Sequence record: NC_014662.1
Direction: 5' to 3' (one strand)
Source of the DNA: Enterobacter phage CC31
Length of the DNA: 64,000 bases
Shown here: piece by piece, positions 1,974 through 38,935 of the stretch
How positions within the stretch are numbered: position 1 is the stretch's first letter
Layout: each line of letters opens with the position of its first letter
Notes under the pieces: generated by a model
The model's input: only the letters and a program-made list of their open reading frames with translations
What the model was told of the DNA's origin: nothing
Database searches by the model: none
Program-made: the position numbers and the translations under genes

Positions 1974-3257
1974 ATGGCTAACATCCATGACCTTCTGCGC
2001 GAATCAACTACAACGACGAGTTCAATTTCTGCCCGTCCTAGCCTCGTTGCATTGACTCGCGCTACTACTAAATTAATTTACTCTGATATTGTAGCTACTC
2101 AGCGTACTACTCAACCTACTGCTGCTTTCTACGGTATCAAATATTTGAACCCTAACAAAGAATTAACGTTCCTTACTGGTGCTACCTACGCAGGTCAAAC
2201 TGGTACTGAGGACCGTAAATCTATTGAAACATTAACTGCTTCAAATAAAGATTCATTTGGCAAGGGTGATTTGTTCAAATACGATGACATTGTTTACAAA
2301 GTACTTGTAGATAATCCATTTGACCAGATTACTGAAACTGATTTAGAAGTTGTAATTCAGATTTCTCTGGTTAAACTCACTACTCGTTTAATGTCTGACG
2401 CTGCTATCACTTCCAAGTTTGAAACTGCTGGAGCTGATATCGCTGAAGCTAAATTCCAAATTGATAAATGGCAGACTCAAGTTAAATCTCGTAAACTTAA
2501 AACGAGCTTGACTGTTGAATTGGCCCAGGACCTTGAAGCTAATGGCTTTGATGCTTCCAATTTTATCGATGATTTACTGGCTACTGAAATGGCCGATGAA
2601 ATTAACAAAGACATTTTACAAAGTCTTGTGACAGTTTCAAAACGATATAAAGTTGAAGGTATCACAGATACTGGATTCATCGATTTATCTTATGCATCTG
2701 CTCCAGAAGCTGGTCGTTCTCTGTATCGCATGGTATGCGAAATGGTTTCTCATATTCAGCGCTCAACATCCTTTACGGCAACATTCGCTGTAGCATCTAC
2801 TCGTGCTGCTGCTGTTCTTGCTGCATCAGGTTGGTTGAAGCATAAACCTGAAGATGATGATTATCTGTCACAGAACGCTTATGGTTTCCTGGCAAACGGT
2901 TTGCCTCTGTATTGCGATACTAACACTCCACTCGATTATGTAATCGTCGGTGTAGTAGAAGATATTGGTGATAAAGAAGTTGTATCGAGTATTTTCTATG
3001 CTCCATACACTGAAGGTATCGACCTTGATGACCCGGAACACGTTGGTGCATTTAAAGTAATTGTTGACCCAGAAAGCTTACAGCCTTCTGTAGCTTTATT
3101 CGTTCGTTATGCATTGTCTGCTAACCCGTATACTGTAGCTAAAGATGAAAAGGAAGCTCGAATCATTGATGGCGGGGATATGGATAAGATGGCAGGACGT
3201 TCTGATTTATCAGTTCTTCTTGGTGTTAAGTTACCAAAAATCATCATTGAAGACTAA
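1974..3257 (+). CDS. 24: head vertex protein gp24
   Basis: 427 aa (T4 gp24 is 427 aa as recalled); gp23-paralog-like C-terminal region; position directly after gene 23. Confidence 0.92.
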   Translation: MANIHDLLRESTTTTSSISARPSLVALTRATTKLIYSDIVATQRTTQPTAAFYGIKYLNPNKELTFLTGATYAGQTGTEDRKSIETLTASNKDSFGKGDLFKYDDIVYKVLVDNPFDQITETDLEVVIQISLVKLTTRLMSDAAITSKFETAGADIAEAKFQIDKWQTQVKSRKLKTSLTVELAQDLEANGFDASNFIDDLLATEMADEINKDILQSLVTVSKRYKVEGITDTGFIDLSYASAPEAGRSLYRMVCEMVSHIQRSTSFTATFAVASTRAAAVLAASGWLKHKPEDDDYLSQNAYGFLANGLPLYCDTNTPLDYVIVGVVEDIGDKEVVSSIFYAPYTEGIDLDDPEHVGAFKVIVDPESLQPSVALFVRYALSANPYTVAKDEKEARIIDGGDMDKMAGRSDLSVLLGVKLPKIIIED

Positions 3258-3263
3258 AAGAAA

Positions 3264-3285
3264 GGGAACCTCACGGTTCCCTTTT
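3264..3285 (+). terminator. intrinsic terminator after gene 24 (GGGAACC-TCAC-GGTTCCC + TTTT)
   Basis: Inverted repeat followed by T run, read directly. Confidence 0.7.
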
Positions 3286-3289
3286 GTAG

Positions 3290-3835
3290 TTATAAAGCAA
3301 ATATATCGAATGTTGGTGCGTATTTTTCTTTAAATCTCTGATAGATTTCTTTCTCGTACAGATTGTAGCAAGGTATACCATGACGCTTGGCTATATCAAC
3401 GGCCACTCGTGTCCCTCCAGTAACGCTAGAGAGTTTTATTGGAGCATAGAATAGTACCATATCCACAGGTGACTGGCAATCCTCTCCGAGCACCTGAAGT
3501 GCATTGCGGGCAAATAGAGTCTTCACTATATCCCGGCACTCATCCCAGTAGCTTGTCACTTCTCTTGCTTTAATTACACTCCTGATTCTCACTTCATTTG
3601 GAAAGTCTTTCCACACCTTTACTCCAACTCCAGTTTTAAGACCATTGAAGCCTTCGTATGGTATGATACGTAATGAACGTTCACGGTCGTATCTACTGAG
3701 CCATGATTCATCTGCACCAGGAGCACCTCCCGAATACGAAAAATGGCCTGACTCCGAAAGAGCCTGACCAGTTAATGACATGACATCTAAAACACGACGT
3801 GGCGTCTCTCGAGAACCGATTAACGCCAAACGCAT
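3290..3835 (-). CDS. DprA/SLOG-like Rossmann-fold protein (function unknown), translationally coupled to rnlB
   Basis: 181 aa; start ATG overlaps rnlB stop (TAATG); motif string LALIGSR...SGGAPGADESW...TGGTRVAVDIAKRHGIPCY resembles DprA/Smf-LOG (SLOG) nucleotide-binding signature. Confidence 0.55.
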   Translation of the reverse strand: MRLALIGSRETPRRVLDVMSLTGQALSESGHFSYSGGAPGADESWLSRYDRERSLRIIPYEGFNGLKTGVGVKVWKDFPNEVRIRSVIKAREVTSYWDECRDIVKTLFARNALQVLGEDCQSPVDMVLFYAPIKLSSVTGGTRVAVDIAKRHGIPCYNLYEKEIYQRFKEKYAPTFDIFAL

Positions 3836-4839
3836 TAGTTACTTACCAGTTCAATCCAAACTGGACGAATTACGCCTTGCACGTAATTGACAAGTTCTTT
3901 CTTGACTACATCAGGATTATCAGCGTCAGTAATGAAGATTTCTTCACGGCCAGCTTCTTCCAGAATATCCTGGACAGTAAGACCCATAACTTTACCAAAG
4001 TCCTTTGGACCAACTTGGCCAATCTTACTGATAACGTTATTGACTCGGTTCAGAGTAGCATAAGCTGCCAGCGTAGAGAAAGCAACCTTATCAACATCAG
4101 TTAATTCAACCTTAGCTTTAATAGGCTTATCGGATTTAGCTTTCTCAGAGAACTTGGAGTTCTTGCATTTAATAGCTACGCGAGAACCATTAGGGAAAAA
4201 TTTAGGGTAGCATGGTTTCAGAACGTAGCCTTCGGCGATATTACTTTCTGATACAACCGCTTGGAATGGCATAGTATTAGCTTCTTCAAGACCATGAGCT
4301 TCAATAGCTTGATTATAGCGATTAACTACAACATCCAGCATATTAGGAATTTGAATCAGGTCATCGAATTTACCACGGCCCAGAAGTGGAGCCATTTTAA
4401 ACCCAAAGACGTTACACATACGTTCCATCATAAAATCATCAACGTAAGACGATTCACCTGATTCGGTAGTCACTTTAATATCAAAGACGTAGAAGTCTTT
4501 TTCACCGTAATCAACACCCTTCTGAATTCCGCCGCCAGCAAATTCACCAAAGATTTGATAAGCTACTGTAGCACCAGTCAGTGCAGCTTGAACAGCTTTA
4601 AAGGACTCGTTATAACGACCCATGATAACCATATAGCCAAAGAAGTCTTCTGCTGGCAGAATAGGACCAGTACGCTTGGCAGGTTGGATGCTATCTTTAG
4701 TTACGATAACAGAGAAGTTAGTGCCGTGAATTTTCTCACGCGCTACCCAAGTTTCAGAGACATCAAAACCAGCATTACGAATACGCTCAATGAATTTACC
4801 GTTGTAGTGGTTCTCGAGCGTTGAATATTTCTCAAACAT
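3835..4839 (-). CDS. rnlB: RNA ligase 2 (Rnl2)
   Basis: 334 aa (same as T4 Rnl2 as recalled); nucleotidyltransferase motif I KIHGTNF; AAGGTG SD upstream. Confidence 0.92.
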
Positions 4840-4847
4840 ATTTCACC

Positions 4848-5108
4848 TTAGAATTTAATTTTGAAAGATTTGCCCTGGTAGTCAGAATTGAACTCATAAG
4901 AGAACTTTTCTTTATTCAGGAATCCTTTTATAGCGGTTTCATGAGAATACCACTCACTTGGAATAATATAAAGGGCTTCAAACTTGCCGCGGGCGGCAGC
5001 GTCGCGAAGATGGTCTTCAATATGGGTTTGAACTTCTTTTGGTAAATTTGTATTAGCTGACTCAGCCATATTCCTGTAGAAATTAGCAAGACTCATTATA
5101 ATCACCAT
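4848..5108 (-). CDS. hypothetical protein
   Basis: 86-aa ORF on the coding strand of the surrounding operon; start position uncertain. Confidence 0.45.
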   Translation of the reverse strand: MVIIMSLANFYRNMAESANTNLPKEVQTHIEDHLRDAAARGKFEALYIIPSEWYSHETAIKGFLNKEKFSYEFNSDYQGKSFKIKF

Positions 5109-5210
5109 ATAAATATCAATAATTAGGGAGGGTTCTATCCTTCTATCGTCAAGCGTATGTACTAGAAAGAATCCGTGAAACCATTATACCACGCGGATTC
5201 TTTAAGCATA

Positions 5211-5792
5211 TTATAGAGGGATTACTTTATACTTCTTATTGCCACGAGCATCACGCTTACAAACTAATTTGCACTTCATGCCGCTTGTGATAGTGTAATC
5301 TTCATCAACCTTCATCCGCATCCAGTCTAATACCATTCCAGATGGGTTCAAAGATTTTTCAACTTCAACCATAATTTTAGTGCCAGACTTATAAAACTTA
5401 GATTCTTGTTGCTCATAGTCAGATAGTGCGCGAGCAAACGCAGATGGGCTTAAGAATTTATTATAACCGTGAGCAGCAGCCACAAATGTATTATCTAAAG
5501 CATGTTTGATATTTTTGATTACGACTGTTGCGTAACCGATGTGTTTTTCTGGATAGTGAGTCATTACAAAGTCCTCATGAACTGCGAAAGTTTTTTGATG
5601 ACGAGATTTTACATCAACATTTGATAAGCGTTTACGATAAACCACTTTCTCTTTTCGTTTAGATTTAGCTTTTGCCGATTCAACTTTAGCATAATATAAA
5701 GCTGCTTCTTCGGGTTTAATACCCGCTTCTCTCGCAATTTCAATAAAACTCAATCCGCACTCATGCTTAAAATGAATCTCAATCGGTGTCAT
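5211..5792 (-). CDS. hypothetical protein with N-terminal helix-turn-helix-like segment
   Basis: 193 aa; N-terminal ECGLSFIEIAREAGIKPEEA resembles an HTH; hairpins on both sides. Confidence 0.55.
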   Translation of the reverse strand: MTPIEIHFKHECGLSFIEIAREAGIKPEEAALYYAKVESAKAKSKRKEKVVYRKRLSNVDVKSRHQKTFAVHEDFVMTHYPEKHIGYATVVIKNIKHALDNTFVAAAHGYNKFLSPSAFARALSDYEQQESKFYKSGTKIMVEVEKSLNPSGMVLDWMRMKVDEDYTITSGMKCKLVCKRDARGNKKYKVIPL

Positions 5793-5849
5793 GGTAATAT
5801 CCTACAGTAAAAGATGTTGATATAATACCACTCTCCAGAAAAAGCAAAA

Positions 5850-5865
5850 GGAGCCTTCGGGCTCC
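5850..5865 (-). terminator. bidirectional GC hairpin with UUCG loop (GGAGCC-TTCG-GGCTCC) downstream of hoc
   Basis: Perfect stem with A/T runs on both sides. Confidence 0.6.
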
Positions 5866-5867
5866 TT

Positions 5868-6679
5868 TTAATAGATGATACCAGCTTCTAAAGCTGAACG
5901 ATGAACAATACGTCCATTACGTGATTCTTGAACATCAACTTCAGGGTAGTCTTCAATCATTTTAGCTAACGTAGCCAAATGACAGTAATAAGGAGTATCA
6001 GAAGCGGTTGCAGTTTTCCAGTCTTTACCTTCTTCAGTAAGTTTCTGAATTGCATCCATAACCCACCAACCAGCCCAGATATAAGCACTAGAGCGATGCG
6101 GAAGTGGATGAACATAGAGAATTGGGCATTCGTCTGGAACAACTGGCTCGGCAGCTTCAACTGTAATATTCAGCACATTTGAAGTTTTAACAGTGTCTTC
6201 GTATCCAGTTGCTTTAGCAGTTACTTCACATGTTAAAGCAACATTTCCTTCCGTTTGAGCTACTGCACTAATATCAGCCGTAGTTTCTCCGGTTGACCAT
6301 TTGTAAGCAAGAGTTGCTCCTGATGGTTGACCTGTTACTCCACAGGTTGCACTATAGCTTTCACCAACTTTAACAGTTTGAGACTGAGCTGAAATAGTAA
6401 CAGTAAGATTCATAACGTCATTTACTGTTAAGTTAGTAGTTGCGGTTTGAATATCGTCTGGGTCTTCACCAGCTTTAGTGGTTGAAGTAACTTTAACTAC
6501 TTTAGTTCCAGCCGAGTCAGCGGTGTAATCCAAAGTATCAGTCACAGATGATTGTACTACAACCATTCATAAGTTATAGTTGCTCCTTCTGGCGCTCCGT
6601 TAACAGTTGCTGTAAACTGTTGTGAATCTCCAACTTTGATAGTGGGATTTAGAGGAGTTAAATCTACTGTAGTAGCCAT
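5868..6679 (-). pseudogene. hoc: hoc (outer capsid decoration protein) interrupted by an apparent single-base frameshift near 6557-6568
   Basis: 40-codon N-terminal frame (MATTVDLTPLNPTIKVGDSQQFTATVNGAPEGATITYEWL*) aligns with T4 Hoc N-terminus; 232-aa downstream frame carries Ig-like repeats and the conserved capsid-binding C-terminus (PILYVHPLPHRSSAYIWAGWWVMD...YPEVDVQESRNG). Confidence 0.8.
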
Positions 6680-6694
6680 ATAATTTCCATTATT

Positions 6695-6713
6695 TAAGAG
6701 GGACAAGCCCTCT
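6695..6713 (-). terminator. hairpin (AGAGGG-ACAAG-CCCTCT) between inh and hoc
   Basis: Inverted repeat read directly; function inferred. Confidence 0.4.
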
Positions 6714-7520: not shown

Positions 7521-9023
7521 ATGCACGATATCAATGTAAAATTTCATGATTTTAGTCATGTGTTTATTGAATGTGATGAATCCACATTTCATGAACTAAG
7601 AGACTATTTTAGTTTTGAAGCTGATGGCTACAAATTCAATCCAAAATACCGTTATGGGCATTGGGATGGACGTATTCGTCTTCTGAACTACGATCGTCTG
7701 CTTCCGTTTGGCCTCGTCGGACAAATCCGCAAATTCGCTAATAGTATGGGTTATTCAGTTTACTTCGAACCGAAGATTTTTGAGACTGAAGAAATTACTC
7801 GTGAAGCGTTTGATGATTGGCTGGGCAATCTCAATATTTACTCTGGGAGTAAAAAGATTGAGCCTCACTGGTATCAGAAAGATGCAGTGTTTGAAGGATT
7901 AGTTAATCGCCGTCGAATTTTGAACCTTCCAACGTCTGCTGGTAAATCTTTAATTCAATGCTTACTTGCTCGTTATTATGTTGAGAATTATGAAGGTAAA
8001 ATTTTAATCATCGTTCCAACAACAGCATTAGTAGACCAGATGATTAACGACTTCTGTGATTATCGTCTATTTGGTAAACAACATTGTCTTGGTATTCGTT
8101 CAGGTACAAAGCGTGATTCTGATGCAATGATTTATGTTGCCACCTGGCAAACAGCAGTAAAACAGCCAAAAGAGTGGTTCCATCAATTCGGCATGATGAT
8201 GAACGATGAATGCCACCTGGCTACCGGTAAGTCTATTTCTACTATCGTTGCTGGTCTAAATAACTGCATGTTTAAGTTCGGCTTATCCGGTTCATTAAAA
8301 GACGGAAAAGCTAATATCATGCAATATGTTGGAATGTTTGGTGAAATTTTCAAACCAGTTTCAACATCACAGCTTATGGAAGATGGACAAGTAACTGACT
8401 TAAAAATTAACTCTATTTTCCTTCGGTACCCGGATGAGTTTACCGTCAAAATGAAAGGTAAAACTTATCAAGAAGAAATTAAAGTTATTACAAATGCAAA
8501 ACGTCGCAATAAATGGATAGCTAATCTTGCAGTAAAATTGGCTAAGCGAGACGAAAATGCATTTCTGATGTTTAAACACGTGGCTCACGGTAAAGAGCTA
8601 TTTGAAATGATTAAAGAACTTGGGTATGAGAAAGTGTATTATGTTTCAGGGGAAGTTTCTACTGAAGTTCGTAATGCTCTGAAGGTGATGGCTGAAAATG
8701 GAACAGGAATTATCGTAGTTGCGTCTTATGGCGTTTTTTCTACTGGCATTTCTGTAAAGAATCTCCATCATGTTATTTTAGCTCACCCAGTTAAATCAAA
8801 AATTATCGTTCTGCAAACAATCGGTCGCGTACTTCGTAAACATGATTCTAAATCAGTTGCTACAGTATGGGATATCATCGATGATATGGGTGTTAAACCA
8901 AAATCAGCAAATGCTAAGAAAAAATATGTTCATTTGAACTATGCTTTAAAGCACGCGCTGGAGCGCATTCAAAGATATGCAGACGAAAAATTCAATTACG
9001 TAATGAAACAAATCGATATTTGA
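7521..9023 (+). CDS. uvsW: UvsW DNA/RNA helicase
   Basis: Start MHDINVKFHDFSHV; close match to T4 UvsW throughout (helicase motifs LNLPTSAGKS, MMNDECHLATGKS, QTIGRVLRKH). Confidence 0.93.
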   Translation: MHDINVKFHDFSHVFIECDESTFHELRDYFSFEADGYKFNPKYRYGHWDGRIRLLNYDRLLPFGLVGQIRKFANSMGYSVYFEPKIFETEEITREAFDDWLGNLNIYSGSKKIEPHWYQKDAVFEGLVNRRRILNLPTSAGKSLIQCLLARYYVENYEGKILIIVPTTALVDQMINDFCDYRLFGKQHCLGIRSGTKRDSDAMIYVATWQTAVKQPKEWFHQFGMMMNDECHLATGKSISTIVAGLNNCMFKFGLSGSLKDGKANIMQYVGMFGEIFKPVSTSQLMEDGQVTDLKINSIFLRYPDEFTVKMKGKTYQEEIKVITNAKRRNKWIANLAVKLAKRDENAFLMFKHVAHGKELFEMIKELGYEKVYYVSGEVSTEVRNALKVMAENGTGIIVVASYGVFSTGISVKNLHHVILAHPVKSKIIVLQTIGRVLRKHDSKSVATVWDIIDDMGVKPKSANAKKKYVHLNYALKHALERIQRYADEKFNYVMKQIDI

Positions 9024-35105: not shown

Positions 35106-37361
35106 TTAAAGCTTACATGCAGAACAATCTTCGGCTTTTGGTTTTTCGATTTCAAAATCGTCGTTACCAGAACCATCACGAGTGTTATGATAGTACAACG
35201 TCTTACCGCCAAAGTACCAGAAGTAAAGCAAGTCGTCCATCATAACAGACATTGGCACTTTACCTTTCTCATAGTTCTGAGGGTCATAGTAAGTATTAGC
35301 TGATGCAGATTGGCATACCCACTTCAACATAATAGCTACTTGAGTCAGATAAGGTTTGTTACCCTGTTTAGCAAGTTTCCATGCATAATCATAGAGGTCA
35401 GCATTCAGTTCAACATTCGGAACTACTTGGTTGAAGCTTCCTTCTTTAGACTCTTTAATAGAGACTGGACCTCGTGGCGGCTCAATACCGTTTGTGCTGT
35501 TGGAAACCTGGGAGGAGGACTCACATGGCATGAGTGCGGACAATGTACTGTTACGGATGCCATATTGCTTGAGTTCTGCACGGAGTGCTTCCCAGTCACA
35601 AACGTAATTCGGCGCCGCGAGCTGGTCAATTCTCTTATTGTACCAGTCGATAGGTAATTCGCCTCGAGACCAACGAGTGTCTTTATAATACTCGCAAGGT
35701 CCTTTTTCTTTTGCAAGTTTAATTGATGCTTTAATGAGTGCATATTGCAGCCTTTCAAACAGTTCATGAGTCAGGTCGTTTGCATCAGCGTATGTAGCAA
35801 AGTTATCTGCCAACCAAGCAGCATAGTTCGTTACACCAACACCCAATGCTCGGCGTTTAAGAGCTTTCAAAGCTTCTTTAACTGGATAACCTTGATAACT
35901 CAAGAGGTTGTCGAGTGCTCGGACTTGGACTTCTGCGAGTTCGTTAATAGTTTCTTGGTCTTGCCAATCGAAGTTGCCGAGCACGAACGCAGACAACGTA
36001 CACAGCGCAATTTCTGCGTCTTCTGAGTAGACGTCTTTAGTAGGTAACGCAATTTCTGCGCAGAGGTTCGATTGCTTAATCGTAGCCACATCACGAATAA
36101 AAGGACCATAATCACCAACGTTATCTACGAAGTAAGGATAGATACGAGCAGTACCCGAACGCTCAGTCAAGAACAGTTCAATTAATTCACGAGCTTTAAC
36201 ACGTTTCTTACGAACATCTGGGTTCTTTTCAAGAGCTTCATATTGTTCACGGAACGCAGCAGCATCTTTGAAATAGTTCTCATACAAACGACCCGCATCA
36301 ATATCCGGAGAGAACAGAGTGATGTAGTCGTCTTTAATCAGACGTTCAAACATCAGGTCGTTGATTTGAACACCATAATCCAAGTGACGAATTCGGTTTT
36401 CATCTACGCCTTTGTTGTTCTTAAGTACGAGGAGGTTCTCAACTTCAAGGTGCCAGATTGGATAGTACAATGTCGCCGCGCCACCACGGACTCCGCCTTG
36501 GGAACAAGACTTAACTGCTGTTTGGATGTGTTTCCAGAAAGGAATAACTCCAGTATGCTTGACTTCTCCGAAGCCGATTTTTGAACCTTCTGCACGAATC
36601 ATACCTGCGTTAATGCCGATACCAGCACGTTTAGAGATGTACTCTACAATTGATTCAGCTGATTTGTTAATTGACTTCAGTGAATCACCAGCTTCAATAA
36701 CAACGCAAGAACTGAATTGACGAGTAGGAGTACGAGCACCTGCCATGATTGGAGTTGGCAGAGAAATTTTCTTAGTTGACACAGCATCATAAAAACGAAT
36801 AGTGTTAACCAAGCGATTTTCACCATCATCCTGGTGCAGAGTCATACCGATGAGCATGAATGCAAACTGAGGAGTTTCGATGATTTGACCCGTGCTGCGG
36901 TCTTTAACCAGGTATTTTTCAATGAGCTGCATTGTACCAGCATACGTCATTTCAAAATCACGGTCATGAACAATTTTACTTTCAAGCAGAGCAATTTCTT
37001 CAGCAGACCATTTGGCAAGAACTTCTTTGTCATATTTGTTGTGATTAACACCAAATGAAATCTGGTCAATAAATGAACGAGGCTCAAACTGCCCATAAAC
37101 TTGCTTACGGAGATTGAACATCGCCAGATTACTTGCGACGTACTGATAATCTGGTTCTTCAATTGAAATCATTGAAGCTGCAACCTTAGTAGCTGCGCGT
37201 TGAATGTCATACGTCGTCATTCCATCTTGCAGATGTGGAACGATAGCTTGATATAGCTCATATGGGTCAACTCGGGTGTTTTCACAACCCCATTCCAGAA
37301 CCTTAATAAGTTTTTCTGGAGTAAATTCCTGAGAGGTACCACTGGACTTAATTACTTTCAT
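35106..37361 (-). CDS. nrdA: ribonucleotide reductase large subunit
   Basis: 751 aa; class Ia RNR catalytic subunit features, C-terminal CxxC tail (DCSACKL). Confidence 0.95.
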   Translation of the reverse strand: MKVIKSSGTSQEFTPEKLIKVLEWGCENTRVDPYELYQAIVPHLQDGMTTYDIQRAATKVAASMISIEEPDYQYVASNLAMFNLRKQVYGQFEPRSFIDQISFGVNHNKYDKEVLAKWSAEEIALLESKIVHDRDFEMTYAGTMQLIEKYLVKDRSTGQIIETPQFAFMLIGMTLHQDDGENRLVNTIRFYDAVSTKKISLPTPIMAGARTPTRQFSSCVVIEAGDSLKSINKSAESIVEYISKRAGIGINAGMIRAEGSKIGFGEVKHTGVIPFWKHIQTAVKSCSQGGVRGGAATLYYPIWHLEVENLLVLKNNKGVDENRIRHLDYGVQINDLMFERLIKDDYITLFSPDIDAGRLYENYFKDAAAFREQYEALEKNPDVRKKRVKARELIELFLTERSGTARIYPYFVDNVGDYGPFIRDVATIKQSNLCAEIALPTKDVYSEDAEIALCTLSAFVLGNFDWQDQETINELAEVQVRALDNLLSYQGYPVKEALKALKRRALGVGVTNYAAWLADNFATYADANDLTHELFERLQYALIKASIKLAKEKGPCEYYKDTRWSRGELPIDWYNKRIDQLAAPNYVCDWEALRAELKQYGIRNSTLSALMPCESSSQVSNSTNGIEPPRGPVSIKESKEGSFNQVVPNVELNADLYDYAWKLAKQGNKPYLTQVAIMLKWVCQSASANTYYDPQNYEKGKVPMSVMMDDLLYFWYFGGKTLYYHNTRDGSGNDDFEIEKPKAEDCSACKL

Positions 37362-37659
37362 GCAAATCCTCTAGCGTAAATGTGTCTTTGAATAATCTGT
37401 TTACTATATGAGCTATTATATCACCATGGCAAGCTTTAGGTTTACAAGTGCATCCTAATCTCATTCCACGGAGAGTCTCCAGGTGCTCACGTTTTATTTC
37501 ACCACTCCTAATACGCTTAATGAAGTCCTCTTTAAAGGCTTCAATGGCAGCCTCCCGGCTGCCAGCATTTTTACCAACGTCATTACCCCACATTGTACCT
37601 CGTTGGATATTAACGTCGAAATCGGAATGGTATTTATTAACCACTCGACAAGCTCTCAT
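37348..37659 (-). CDS. hypothetical Cys/His-containing protein
   Basis: 103-aa ORF overlapping nrdA start by 14 nt; GCTCKPKACHGD motif. Confidence 0.5.
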   Translation of the reverse strand: MRACRVVNKYHSDFDVNIQRGTMWGNDVGKNAGSREAAIEAFKEDFIKRIRSGEIKREHLETLRGMRLGCTCKPKACHGDIIAHIVNRLFKDTFTLEDLHESN

Positions 37660-37889
37660 TTAACTTCCACAATAAACCATGTATCATGAATTAATTGATT
37701 AGATTCAAGTCCGAATTCTTCAAAACCGTGCGCTTTTTCGTATGCATGGACAACGTTACGAACATAGAGACGCGCTCCACGAACTTGAATAATTGAACCG
37801 ACCTTTGGAATTTCAGAATCACGGATGTTATAAACTTCTGCGATAGGGTCTTCTTCATTATTTTGAATTACAATTCTAAGATGTGGCAT
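37656..37889 (-). CDS. hypothetical protein
   Basis: 77-aa ORF. Confidence 0.45.
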   Translation of the reverse strand: MPHLRIVIQNNEEDPIAEVYNIRDSEIPKVGSIIQVRGARLYVRNVVHAYEKAHGFEEFGLESNQLIHDTWFIVEVK

Positions 37890-38935
37890 TATGCTTTACT
37901 CACAATAACAACGCGTTCAGTAGATTCACCAACAATTTCAATGTGATGAGCCAGAACTATATGAAAATAGCCATTAATCATAATAGAAGAGTTTAATTTG
38001 AAGTCAGCATCGCACAGTTGCTCATCAGTTTGAGCATAAACGATACTTCCCAAAGCATTTGTAAATTTAGTAATCATACAGCCATTTTTTCCTTTGATTG
38101 TTGGGTGACTTTCATAGTTAACTAACTTGAAGTCTTCGATAACAGCAAATCGGTTTATCCACTTAAGCTGAGATGAAGTTTGCCAGCGCTCAAACTCAAT
38201 TGGAAAATCAATTTCAAGATTGCAGAGTTCTTTTGGCTCTCGACGAAGAATTTCTTCGCACTGCTCAATATGATTTGAATAAATGTGAGTGTTGCCGCCA
38301 GTAAATACCAAATGACCAGGTTTTAAGCCAGTCATTTTAGCTACGATATGAATCAAAGCAGCATACGACGCAATATTGAATGGTAGACCAAGGAATACAT
38401 CTACCGACCTCTGGTACCACTGGAGGTCCAGAAGCCCATTGCGTACGTTGAACTGATATATCATATGGCATGGTGGAAGCGCCATCTTAGGGATGTCTAG
38501 AGGGTTCCAGGCGGTCACAATTTGACGGCGGTCATTAGGTAGTTCTTTGATTCGGTTAATAACCAAAGTCAATTGGTCAACACCCATAAAGTCTCGCCAC
38601 TGCTTACCATAAACCGGACCAAGCTCGCCGTCGACATATCCCATTGAACGAGCTTGATTTTCGTAGTTGTCGTCCCAAACAGTTTTACCATTTGTCGGAG
38701 ACCCATGCTGACGAAGACGCAAATCGTTTACATTCGTTGAACCGGACAAGAACCACAGAAGTTCTGCAATACATGCTTTCCAAGCAAGCTTCTTGGTAGT
38801 CACTGCTGGAAAACCTTCTTGCAAATCAAATCGTAATTGAGTACCAAACACAGCACAAGTGCCAGTTCCTGTGCGGTCGTCAGTTACATAGCCTTCATCA
38901 AAGATGTGTTGAATTAGTTGTTGATATTGTTTCAT
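37889..38935 (-). CDS. td: thymidylate synthase; as sequenced fused in frame to a 62-codon downstream ORF through an A6 run (38085-38090); canonical TS end predicted near 38075
   Basis: TS motifs (DRTGTGT, PPCH active-site Cys, WNP, QWYQRSVD); with A5 instead of A6 the frame would read IKGKMAV-stop and the next ORF (MITKF...) would start at an ATGA overlap. Confidence 0.88.
   Translation of the reverse strand: MKQYQQLIQHIFDEGYVTDDRTGTGTCAVFGTQLRFDLQEGFPAVTTKKLAWKACIAELLWFLSGSTNVNDLRLRQHGSPTNGKTVWDDNYENQARSMGYVDGELGPVYGKQWRDFMGVDQLTLVINRIKELPNDRRQIVTAWNPLDIPKMALPPCHMIYQFNVRNGLLDLQWYQRSVDVFLGLPFNIASYAALIHIVAKMTGLKPGHLVFTGGNTHIYSNHIEQCEEILRREPKELCNLEIDFPIEFERWQTSSQLKWINRFAVIEDFKLVNYESHPTIKGKNGCMITKFTNALGSIVYAQTDEQLCDADFKLNSSIMINGYFHIVLAHHIEIVGESTERVVIVSKA

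What the first reader, a model, noticed from the sequence alone, without database searches (positions are those of the whole stretch)
3290..3835. DprA/SLOG-like Rossmann protein translationally coupled to RNA ligase 2
The ORF immediately downstream of rnlB (stop/start overlap TAATG), lying between rnlB and gene 24, encodes a 181-aa protein. Its motif string LALIGSR...SGGAPGADESW...TGGTRVAVDIAKRHG resembles the nucleotide-binding signature of the DprA/Smf, LOG and related SLOG Rossmann domains. Tight coupling to an RNA-repair ligase suggests a nucleotide- or RNA-end-processing partner, for example in tRNA repair or a counter-defence against host anticodon nucleases or nucleotide-signalling immunity. 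I do not recall a characterised T4 protein of this type at this locus.
Basis: inference. Interest (0 to 1): 0.6.

Follow-up and report, generated by a model that had tools for sequence, protein, structure and literature searches.

The report
Phage DprA-like SLOG protein beside RNA ligase 2
The ORF is a real, strongly conserved phage gene for a small nucleotide-binding (SLOG/DprA-like) protein made together with RNA ligase 2; databases already label the family, nobody has tested its function, and this T4-like branch has lost two signature residues.

Summary
A 181-aa ORF lies on the minus strand at 3290-3835. Its ATG overlaps the TAA of rnlB (TAATG), and a hairpin terminator follows it. dN/dS against close relatives is 0.03-0.05.

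The family is large: 1398 phage records and 6402 cluster representatives. Relatives are fused to NADAR, Macro and DUF4326, and lie near Macro, NADAR and NAMPT genes. This matches a published but untested prediction of ADP-ribose-signal handling.

All checked fusions carry R34 and H94-P95. The enterobacterial T4-like clade, this ORF included, has Y34 and T94-S95, and sits directly after Rnl2.

Most likely it is a pre-replicative nucleotide/ADP-ribose-ligand binder, probably non-catalytic, used in counter-defence. A role as a direct Rnl2 partner is possible but unproven: T4 has rnlB without it, and Krischvirus has it with no rnlB nearby.

It is a known kind with an untested function, of moderate interest.

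The parts
3290..3835 (-). 181-aa ORF encoding a single stand-alone SLOG (DprA-like) Rossmannoid domain
3833..3837 (-). TAATG: the rnlB stop codon overlaps the SLOG start codon by one base
   Evidence: Read directly from the sequence. Gaps of -18 to +6 nt between the Rnl2 match and the SLOG start in most related T4-like loci.
3809..3817 (-). G7-S8-R9 loop after strand 1. It has the form of the DprA G-S/T/A-R motif and is the presumed phosphate contact.
   Evidence: Invariant or near-invariant across the family. Aligned to IGTR of H. pylori DprA and VGSR of E. coli Smf.
3710..3736 (-). Y34-S35-G36-G37-A38-P39-G40-A41-D42 loop. S35, G36 and D42 are invariant. Position 34 is Arg in the wider family but Tyr here.
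   Evidence: Alignments A1/A2. Per-locus site table. Fusion proteins all carry R34, apart from two exceptions with H or Y.
3551..3556 (-). T94-S95, which replace the family's near-invariant H94-P95 (HPxW motif)
3494..3508 (-). R110-N111-x-x-Q114 on helix 4. By eye it resembles the RN of the DprA FPxRNR motif.
   Evidence: R110 is invariant; N111 and Q114 are at least 90% conserved. The correspondence to DprA is an inference from motif order, not an aligned result.
3410..3418 (-). G140-G141-T142 cap of helix 5, the SLOG phosphate-binding helix cap. No Glu lies three residues later; position 145 is Ala.
   Evidence: Invariant. Helix 141-151 in the model.
3261..3284 (-). Intrinsic-terminator hairpin plus T-run, 6 nt after the ORF stop. 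It lies between the convergent gene 24 and the SLOG gene.
   Evidence: Terminator scan. Fold of -17.2 kcal/mol, z -4.2.
3835..4839 (-). rnlB, RNA ligase 2 (334 aa), immediately upstream on the same strand
   Evidence: Pfam RNA_ligase and T4_Rnl2_C. PHROG 548 at E 1.1e-124.
4848..5108 (-). 24.2-like ORF (86 aa), in the same transcription unit
   Evidence: PHROG 3012. T4 gene order.
5211..5792 (-). 24.3-like ORF (193 aa; DUF2774 plus an extra C-terminal domain), the first gene of the unit
   Evidence: Pfam DUF2774 at 9.9e-21. PHROGs 1566 and 7636.
5183..5208 (-). Candidate MotA-type middle promoter (TGCTTAA, 13 nt, TATAAT) upstream of the 24.2-like ORF
   Evidence: Pattern TGCTT-N13-15-TATWAT gives 4 matches against 0.32 expected. 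Sequence. Reading it as a promoter is an inference from the T4 middle-promoter consensus, recalled from memory.
5822..5846 (-). Second candidate middle promoter (TGCTTTT, 12 nt, TATTAT) upstream of the 24.3-like ORF
   Evidence: Inference as above.
5845..5870 (-). Terminator hairpin after hoc, which marks the upstream limit of the 24.3-24.2-rnlB-SLOG unit

Best explanation
The ORF encodes a stand-alone SLOG-superfamily Rossmannoid protein. It belongs to a very large, phage-dominated, DprA-like family (PHROG 768).

Proposed ligand site. A pocket at the C-terminal ends of the strands binds a phosphate-bearing adenine-nucleotide or ADP-ribose-type ligand. The pocket is built from the G7-S8-R9 loop, the S35-G36-G37...D42 loop, R110/N111 on helix 4 and the G140-G141-T142 helix cap.

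Expression. The protein is made before replication from the 24.3-24.2-rnlB-SLOG transcript. The TAATG overlap allows translation to re-initiate after Rnl2.

Proposed role. It acts in counter-defence by binding an NAD-/ADP-ribose-derived or related nucleotide product of host immunity, as a sponge or sensor. The enterobacterial T4-like clade has replaced the family's R34 and H94-P95, so this member is more likely a binder than the enzyme its ancestors may be.

Shown here: the gene is real; the fold; the motif conservation; the operon boundaries; the fusion and neighbourhood pattern of the family; the clade-specific substitutions.

Inferred: the pocket assignment, the ligand class, the non-catalytic mode, the expression timing and the anti-defence role.
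For: Fold.
- PHROG 768 matches at E 1.7e-57.
- The AF2 model has pLDDT 93.8.

Conserved loops. G7, R9, S35, G36, D42, R110, G140, G141 and T142 are invariant in 83 diverse members.

Family context.
- Members scoring about 182-193 bits against the family profile are fused to NADAR, Macro, DUF4326, YAcAr and SLOG-cluster4 domains. These include 1475-1488-aa polyvalent proteins.
- In 117 unique IMG/VR loci, Macro lies within 3 kb in 10, NAMPT in 9 and NADAR in 4.
- Pakpunavirus K5 has the gene about 1 kb from a PRPP-synthetase-like gene, a NAMPT-like gene and a Macro gene.
- A Mesorhizobium locus has NADAR and DUF4326 flanking it.
- This window itself encodes a DUF4326 protein at 37348-37659.

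Published comparative genomics independently predicts that viral SLOG domains bind or degrade cADPR-type signals (PMC9503650).

Clade-specific loss of R34 and H94-P95 is shown.

Operon structure: terminators at 5870-5845 and 3284-3261, and enriched middle-promoter-like motifs.
Against: - No ligand, binding or phenotype data exist for any member; none was found in the literature searched.
- The NADAR/Macro/DUF4326 fusions all involve the ancestral R34/H94-P95 type. Transferring that inference to this derived clade is therefore uncertain.
- No Macro, NADAR or NAMPT gene lies near the ORF, or within this 64-kb window, at the sensitivity used.
- The nearest solved structures are ssDNA-binding DprA proteins, not small-molecule binders. 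The Arg of the GSR motif matches a DprA ssDNA contact.
- The pocket geometry could not be inspected because model coordinates are not returned.
Confidence: 0.4

Rival explanations
1. Dedicated partner of RNA ligase 2. The SLOG domain binds a single-stranded RNA end, or a nucleotide adduct on it (5'-App, 2'-phosphate, ADP-ribosyl or NAD cap). It then hands the substrate to Rnl2 or clears it for Rnl2. The two proteins would together form a phage RNA-repair module against host ribonuclease or RNA-modifying defences.
For: - The TAATG overlap, and the same immediate adjacency (gaps of -18 to +6 nt in most), occur in 24 loci from 8 SLOG lineages. These share only 36-66% identity, while the other flanking genes change.
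- RNA ligase is the most frequent non-structural neighbour: within 1 kb in 22 of 117 unique loci.
- Two rhizobiophage-like contigs place an ancestral-type SLOG 0.4-1.1 kb downstream of a differently built RNA ligase (N-terminal PHA02142 OB domain plus RNA_ligase, no Rnl2 C-domain), together with Macro, PTH2 and a metallophosphatase.
- The clade that sits after Rnl2 is the one with remodelled residues 34, 94 and 95.
- The DprA-type Arg of the GSR motif is kept.
Against: - T4 and its close relatives keep rnlB with no SLOG gene.
- Krischvirus Makalu_003 keeps the SLOG gene next to gene 24 with no rnlB within 4 kb.
- The RB43/Slopekvirus adjacency is inherited synteny within an inverted inh-hoc-...-rnlB-SLOG block, so all T4-type cases may be one ancestral event.
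- Stop/start overlaps are common between unrelated genes in T4-like genomes (general knowledge).
- No true Rnl2-SLOG fusion was seen; the one candidate, P0024, is an internally deleted chimera.
- No interaction test could be run.
Confidence: 0.25
2. A true DprA-like recombination mediator. It binds phage ssDNA and loads or modulates the recombinase (UvsX or host RecA), as current database labels imply.
For: - The GSR motif aligns with DprA. H. pylori DprA R52, R143 and R170 are ssDNA contacts, conserved in ShosA (PMC12961424).
- One relative is fused to a RecJ-type exonuclease.
- A jumbo-phage survey suggested phage DprA copies as extra ssDNA binders (PMC7824862).
Against: - The match is below the Pfam gathering score (13.8 against 29.6 bits), and only the N-terminal third aligns.
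- There is no SAM domain and no C-terminal winged-helix domain (181 aa, one domain).
- The recurrent fusion partners are NADAR, Macro and DUF4326, not recombination proteins.
- The gene sits with an RNA ligase and not with uvsX/uvsY. T4-like phages already have UvsY as mediator (RB43 annotation; general knowledge).
Confidence: 0.12
3. Mimic or decoy of DprA-like antitoxins of host defence systems (ShosA of ShosTA, PsyrA of PsyrTA). It would keep the toxin silenced during infection.
For: - Weak PADLOC hit to PsyrA (E 0.011, residues 3-44).
- ShosA neutralises ShosT through ssDNA and RecA binding, not by direct toxin binding (PMC12961424).
Against: - The hits are generic SLOG-fold similarity and no better than to LOG or Moco-carrier proteins.
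- The protein lacks ShosA's SAM domain and extra helix.
- The family is spread over phages of many hosts, which does not suggest a specific decoy.
Confidence: 0.05
4. LOG-type phosphoribohydrolase. It would cleave the N-glycosidic bond of a nucleotide to release a free base, remodelling nucleotide pools.
Against: - The catalytic Glu of the LOG PGGxGTxxE motif is absent. Position 145 is a near-invariant Ala.
- No Pfam LOG (Lysine_decarbox) hit appeared.
- This clade has additionally lost R34 and H94-P95.
Confidence: 0.05

Closest known systems
PHROG 768 / RefSeq 'DprA-like DNA recombination-mediator protein' of phages (e.g. Enterobacter phage PG7, Klebsiella phage JD18, Escherichia phage RB43 ORF250w)
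   Same: Same family. The match is full length at E 1.7e-57. Identity is 100-98% to the PS49 and PG7 copies and 36-66% to JD18, Moon and RB43. The position after rnlB is the same.
   Different: Nothing differs at family level. The name is a homology label only, and no member has been characterised. The enterobacterial T4-like branch differs from most of the family at residues 34, 94-95 and 129.
Bacterial DprA/Smf (Pfam PF02481; PDB 3MAJ, 4LJK, 3UQZ)
   Different: The match is below the Pfam threshold. There is no SAM domain and no C-terminal winged-helix domain, and the protein is 181 aa against 280-380 aa. The fusion partners and neighbours point to NAD/ADP-ribose and RNA themes, not transformation or recombination.
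Viral SLOG domains surveyed by Iyer, Burroughs, Anantharaman and Aravind (Viruses 2022, PMC9503650)
   Same: Stand-alone phage SLOG proteins, frequent in medium and large phages, fused or linked to Macro and NADAR. They are predicted to sense or degrade cADPR-type signals. I reproduced that fusion pattern independently.
   Different: That paper assigns viral SLOGs mainly to a 'YpsA-like clade'. Here DprA is the nearest neighbour by both sequence and structure. Its main text does not mention the Rnl2 linkage, and I did not find the loss of R34/H94-P95 in this clade reported in the passages read.
ThsA SLOG domain of type I Thoeris (PDB 7UXS, 6LHX)
   Same: Same superfamily. It is a non-catalytic SLOG that binds an ADP-ribose-derived signal (3'cADPR), which is the mode of action proposed here.
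ShosA antitoxin (PDB 8ZVA)
   Different: It is host-encoded, has a SAM domain, acts as a dimer and binds ssDNA and RecA (PMC12961424).

Membership tests
SLOG superfamily (Smf/DprA-LOG Rossmannoid) | Three-layer alpha/beta Rossmannoid fold, with structural neighbours drawn from SLOG families | tested here: met
SLOG superfamily (Smf/DprA-LOG Rossmannoid) | Conserved glycine-rich loop after strand 1, a GxD/E-type loop after strand 2, and a GG(x)T helix cap before the last helices | tested here: met
   G7-S8-R9, S35-G36-G37...G40-x-D42 and G140-G141-T142 are invariant or nearly so in A1 and A2.
PHROG 768 (phage 'DprA-like' family) | Full-length significant match to the family profile | tested here: met
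   E 1.7e-57, residues 2-174 against profile positions 5-181 of 191.
DprA/Smf (Pfam PF02481 DNA_processg_A) | Profile score above the curated gathering threshold | tested here: not met
   13.8 bits against a cut-off of 29.6; only residues 3-43 align. 78 of 83 relatives give weak hits, best E 1e-6; the rows printed (first member and the fusion proteins) are all below the cut-off. hhalign against E. coli Smf aligns 63 columns at probability 5%.
DprA/Smf (Pfam PF02481 DNA_processg_A) | G-S/T/A-R motif after strand 1, whose Arg contacts ssDNA | tested here: met
   IGSR aligns with IGTR of H. pylori DprA and VGSR of E. coli Smf. R52 of HpDprA is an ssDNA contact (PMC12961424). Its identity with the GTR arginine is inferred from numbering.
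DprA/Smf (Pfam PF02481 DNA_processg_A) | Typical architecture with an N-terminal SAM domain and/or a C-terminal winged-helix (DML1) domain | tested here: not met
   181 aa forming a single domain that spans the whole protein.
DprA/Smf (Pfam PF02481 DNA_processg_A) | ssDNA binding, dimerisation and RecA loading | not testable with these tools
   Requires biochemistry.
LOG phosphoribohydrolases | PGGxGTxxE motif with the catalytic Glu | tested here: not met
   G140-G141-T142-R-V-A145. The position three residues after Thr is a near-invariant Ala. No Pfam LOG hit.
YspA/YAcAr (PF10686) and YpsA (DUF1273) SLOG families | Significant match to the family profile | tested here: not met
Ancestral-type phage SLOG (the form fused to NADAR/Macro/DUF4326) | R34 before SGG, and the H94-P95-x-W motif | tested here: not met
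   The window protein has Y34 and T94-S95. All but 2 of the 20 fusion/long proteins checked have R34 and all have H94-P95 in their main SLOG domain. The same split appears across 80 viral loci.
ThsA-type cADPR-sensing SLOG | Residues that contact 3'cADPR | not tested

The most novel reading that the evidence does not exclude
The enterobacterial T4-like clade is a remodelled SLOG that has become the substrate-recognition partner of RNA ligase 2. It would bind an RNA end carrying a nucleotide adduct left by host defence (ADP-ribosyl, 2'-phosphate/Appr>p-related, NAD cap or 5'-App) and couple its recognition or removal to Rnl2 sealing. This would tie RNA repair to the NAD/ADP-ribose conflict network. 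It would also give the first handle on the biological role of T4-type Rnl2, which to my knowledge has remained unknown since the enzyme was described in 2002.
Probability: 0.2. Interest if true: 0.7.

Novelty: new member of a known kind. Interest (0 to 1): 0.4.

Why it matters
The family is one of the commoner uncharacterised accessory genes of large phages. It occurs in 1398 of 50,697 phage records and has 6402 cluster representatives in metagenomes. It is routinely annotated as a 'recombination mediator' on homology alone.

The evidence here suggests that label is probably misleading. The family belongs with the Macro/NADAR/DUF4326/NAMPT toolkit that phages use against NAD- and ADP-ribose-based immunity.

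A direct test would either add a new class of anti-signalling protein or correct a widespread annotation. In T4-like enterobacterial phages, including therapeutic Enterobacter and Klebsiella phages, the derived clade's fixed position after Rnl2 also offers a tractable route to the unsolved question of what Rnl2 does in vivo.

Tried and rejected
1. Sequence search of the PDB with the single protein found nothing meaningful. With the profile, only the N-terminal 46 residues matched HpDprA, at E 0.02.
2. hhalign of the family profile against E. coli Smf aligned 63 columns at 5% probability. Forcing a global alignment failed. Smith-Waterman against Smf was no better than shuffles, z -0.7. The correspondence of R110-N111 to the DprA RN motif therefore remains a by-eye inference.
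3. I tried to test an Rnl2-SLOG complex with AF2, using a linker and a paired alignment of 11 loci.
4. The afdb50 fold library was not available.
The narrow alignment gave only 10 loci; the two examined more closely (L086, L092) look phage- or prophage-like.
6. I first read the RB43/Slopekvirus arrangement as an independent co-relocation of rnlB plus SLOG. Checking RB43 showed an inversion of the whole inh-hoc-...-rnlB-SLOG block, so I rejected that argument.
7. P0024 looked like an Rnl2-SLOG fusion. It is an internally deleted chimera.
8. Isoelectric point does not discriminate between roles. The family median is 7.9, with a range of 5.2-9.6.
9. The PADLOC hit to PsyrA is a weak similarity limited to the N-terminal ~40 residues.
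10. Literature searches found no experimental study of the phage family.
Full report
**Observation.** The window is a T4-like genome of the Karamvirus type. It is about 95% identical in nucleotides to Enterobacter phages Entb_43 and PG7. The local order is gene 23 (326-1888, +), gene 24 (1974-3257, +), then on the minus strand the ORF in question (3290-3835), rnlB (3835-4839), a 24.2-like ORF, a 24.3-like ORF, hoc and inh, followed by uvsW on the plus strand.

Its ATG (3835-3833) shares one base with the TAA of rnlB, giving TAATG on the minus strand. rnlB is a bona fide Rnl2, with Pfam RNA_ligase at 3.9e-21 and T4_Rnl2_C at 2.2e-18.

The ORF is a real gene. dN/dS against two close relatives is 0.028 and 0.051. 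Phage T4 has 29 nt between gene 24 and rnlB and no such gene.

**What the protein is.** Pfam gives only a sub-threshold hit to DNA_processg_A (13.8 bits against a cut-off of 29.6, residues 3-43). NCBIfam gives nothing. PADLOC gives a weak N-terminal hit to PsyrA. PHROGs gives a full-length match to phrog_768, 'DprA-like DNA recombination-mediator protein', at E 1.7e-57. Several GenBank and RefSeq records of near-identical phages already carry that label.

An AlphaFold2 model built on 43 homologues is confident (pLDDT 93.8, pTM 0.88) and has the alternating strand/helix order of a Rossmannoid domain.
- Foldseek against the PDB puts H. pylori DprA first (E about 1e-4). The ThsA SLOG domain bound to 3'cADPR, ShosA, TM1055, Moco-carrier proteins and LOG enzymes follow.
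- Against predicted viral structures, the best hits (TM up to 0.86) are uncharacterised phage proteins, some labelled DprA-like.

The SLOG assignment is therefore solid. DprA is the nearest characterised relative, but the protein is not a member of the curated DprA family. It lacks DprA's SAM and winged-helix domains. It also lacks the catalytic Glu of the LOG PGGxGTxxE motif, since position 145 is a near-invariant Ala.

**The family.** tblastn finds a homologue in 1398 of 50,697 phage records. The hosts include Klebsiella, Pseudomonas, Escherichia, Vibrio, Aeromonas, Acinetobacter and Rhizobium. An exhaustive profile search finds 6402 cluster representatives at E <= 1e-3, and 2564 at E <= 1e-30.

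In 83 diverse members the invariant residues are G7, R9, S35, G36, D42, P59, R110, G140, G141 and T142. Near-invariant residues include R34, H94, N111, Q114 and C129. Of those 83 members, 78 give weak DNA_processg_A hits, 36 give weak SLOG-cluster4 hits and only 2 hit YAcAr.

Many members are multidomain. Fusion partners are:
- NADAR (P0058, P0059, P0113, P0174, P0085);
- Macro (P0113, P0074);
- DUF4326 (P0113, P0204, P0170);
- YAcAr plus SLOG-cluster4 in 1475-1488-aa polyvalent proteins;
- a RecJ-type exonuclease (P0096);
- DUF7831 (P0190).

**Neighbourhoods.** I examined 117 unique IMG/VR loci.
- An RNA ligase lies within 1 kb in 22.
- Macro lies within 3 kb in 10. Several of these are annotated 'phosphatase' but are Macro domains.
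- NAMPT lies within 3 kb in 9, PTH2 in 7 and NADAR in 4.

In Pakpunavirus K5 the gene lies about 1 kb from a PRPP-synthetase-like gene, a NAMPT-like gene and a Macro gene. A Mesorhizobium locus has NADAR and DUF4326 on either side. Otherwise the neighbours are highly variable: there are 46 SLOG lineages at 60% identity, and few neighbour families are shared by more than three lineages. The present window also encodes a DUF4326 protein at 37348-37659, and it has only one SLOG copy.

**Literature.** Iyer et al. 2022 (PMC9503650) surveyed viral SLOG domains. They noted fusions to Macro and NADAR, and predicted that these domains sense or degrade cADPR-type ADP-ribose signals. An earlier jumbo-phage paper by the same group suggested that phage DprA/Smf copies might be extra ssDNA-binding proteins (PMC7824862). 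Genome-announcement papers simply list the gene under 'recombination'. I found no experimental work on any phage member. The main text of PMC9503650 does not mention an Rnl2-SLOG pairing.

**The link to Rnl2.** In the enterobacterial T4-like phages (SLOG identity 36-99% to this ORF), Rnl2 is directly upstream on the same strand in 24 loci from 8 lineages. Most gaps are -18 to +6 nt, and they are -1 (an ATGA overlap) in the Slopekvirus/Pseudotevenvirus group.

I first took the RB43 arrangement (srd-rnlB-SLOG, with NAMPT 1.3 kb downstream) as an independent relocation. Inspection of RB43 shows that the whole inh-hoc-...-rnlB-SLOG block is inverted relative to T4. That adjacency is therefore inherited synteny.

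The two genes are also separable. T4 has rnlB alone. Krischvirus Makalu_003 has the SLOG gene next to gene 24 with no rnlB within 4 kb.

In favour of a real link, two rhizobiophage-like contigs (L064, L045) place an ancestral-type SLOG 0.4-1.1 kb downstream of a differently built RNA ligase. That ligase has an N-terminal PHA02142 OB domain plus RNA_ligase, and no Rnl2 C-domain. Macro lies nearby in both contigs, and L064 also has PTH2, a metallophosphatase and NAMPT.

Overall, a shared pathway with the ligase is plausible but rests mainly on gene order.

**A clade-specific change.** Every T4-type Rnl2-adjacent SLOG, including this one, has lost residues that are otherwise near-invariant:
- R34 becomes Y, F or another residue;
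- H94-P95 of the HPxW motif becomes T-S, Y-P, A-G and similar;
- C129-W-T becomes F/Y-W/Y-A.

Nearly all of the NADAR, Macro, DUF4326, RecJ and DUF7831 fusion proteins keep R34, and all keep H94-P95 in their main SLOG domain. C129 is less constant. From the model's secondary structure, residues 34 and 129 sit at the C-terminal ends of strands 2 and 4, and residue 94 sits in the loop before helix 4. That is where Rossmannoid ligand sites lie. This placement is an inference, because model coordinates are not returned.

Two consequences follow. The ADP-ribose inference drawn from fusions applies most directly to the ancestral type. The derived clade has probably changed ligand or lost catalysis, while keeping the phosphate-binding loops.

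**Expression.** On the minus strand a hairpin terminator follows hoc (5870-5845). Another follows the SLOG ORF (3284-3261; -17.2 kcal/mol, z -4.2). Between them lie the 24.3-like ORF, the 24.2-like ORF, rnlB and the SLOG gene.

The pattern TGCTT-N13-15-TATWAT, which resembles the T4 MotA-dependent middle-promoter consensus (from memory), occurs 4 times in the window against 0.32 expected. Two of the four sites sit directly upstream of the 24.3-like and 24.2-like ORFs (5846-5822 and 5208-5183). Pre-replicative co-expression with Rnl2 is therefore likely, but it is inferred.

**Conclusion on mechanism.** I commit to the following, at about 0.4 confidence. The protein is a nucleotide-ligand-binding SLOG module, most likely for an adenine-nucleotide or ADP-ribose-type compound. 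It is made early together with Rnl2 and acts in counter-defence, and in this clade it is probably a binder and not an enzyme.

The main rival, at about 0.25, is a dedicated Rnl2 partner that recognises RNA ends or adducts on them. A genuine DprA-like recombination mediator comes next (about 0.12). An antitoxin mimic and a LOG-type hydrolase each stand at about 0.05.

**Novelty.** The fold and the family are already known and labelled, and the NAD/ADP-ribose reading has been published as a prediction. The added elements are modest:
- the demonstration that the 'recombination mediator' label fails the DprA membership tests;
- the consistent position after Rnl2 in enterobacterial T4-like phages;
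- the loss of R34 and H94-P95 in exactly that clade.

It is a new member, arguably a sub-variant, of a known kind. Interest is moderate because the function of a very common phage gene remains untested.

Noticed in passing
window 37348-37659 (-): A 103-aa DUF4326 protein (Pfam E 1.5e-20) lies between nrdA and td. DUF4326 is a recurrent fusion partner of the ancestral-type SLOG family, so this phage carries both as separate genes about 34 kb apart.
   Followed up: partly
window 5868-6706 (-): hoc appears split into a 49-aa ORF (6557-6706) and a 232-aa ORF (5868-6566). The PG7 record also calls it a 'putative split head outer capsid protein'.
   Followed up: no
window 37889-38935 (-): The thymidylate synthase ORF is 348 aa. 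From memory, that is about 60 residues longer at the C-terminus than T4 Td. It may be read-through into an intron or a true extension.
   Followed up: no
window 5211-5792 (-): The 24.3-like gene encodes 193 aa: DUF2774 at residues 3-63 plus an extra C-terminal domain (phrog_7636). T4 gp24.3 is only 56 aa.
   Followed up: no
L007 (Enterobacter phage PG7, KJ101592) 8001-8545: The PG7 copy of the SLOG gene is broken into three tblastn pieces, and the deduced ORF is 140 aa. This is either a frameshift or a sequencing error in an otherwise 98% identical gene.
   Followed up: no
P0024 (299 aa, NCBI-sourced protein): This is an in-frame chimera of Rnl2 segments joined to SLOG residues ~62-181. It is probably a deletion variant or an assembly artefact, not a natural fusion.
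   Followed up: partly
window 5171-5200 (-): The inverted repeat GAATCCG...CGGATTC encloses the TATAAT of the candidate middle promoter upstream of the 24.2-like ORF. It could be a regulatory hairpin or a weak terminator.
   Followed up: no
L064 1-8504 (206.7-kb rhizobiophage-like IMG/VR contig): A same-strand early-gene block reads NAMPT - PTH2 - Macro - metallophosphatase - RNA ligase with an N-terminal OB domain - 131-aa ORF - SLOG. It looks like a combined NAD-salvage, ADP-ribose and RNA-repair cluster.
   Followed up: partly
L110, L111, L119, L128, L139, L059, L076 (IMG/VR loci): A PTH2-type peptidyl-tRNA hydrolase lies within 0.5-3 kb upstream of ancestral-type SLOG genes. This holds in 7 of 117 unique loci, mostly T4-like environmental contigs.
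   Followed up: no
L003/L173/L174 (Escherichia phage RB43): Relative to T4, the block inh-hoc-...-srd-rnlB-SLOG is inverted and expanded, and uvsY/uvsW now sit next to gene 24. NAMPT and dam lie just downstream of the SLOG gene.
   Followed up: yes
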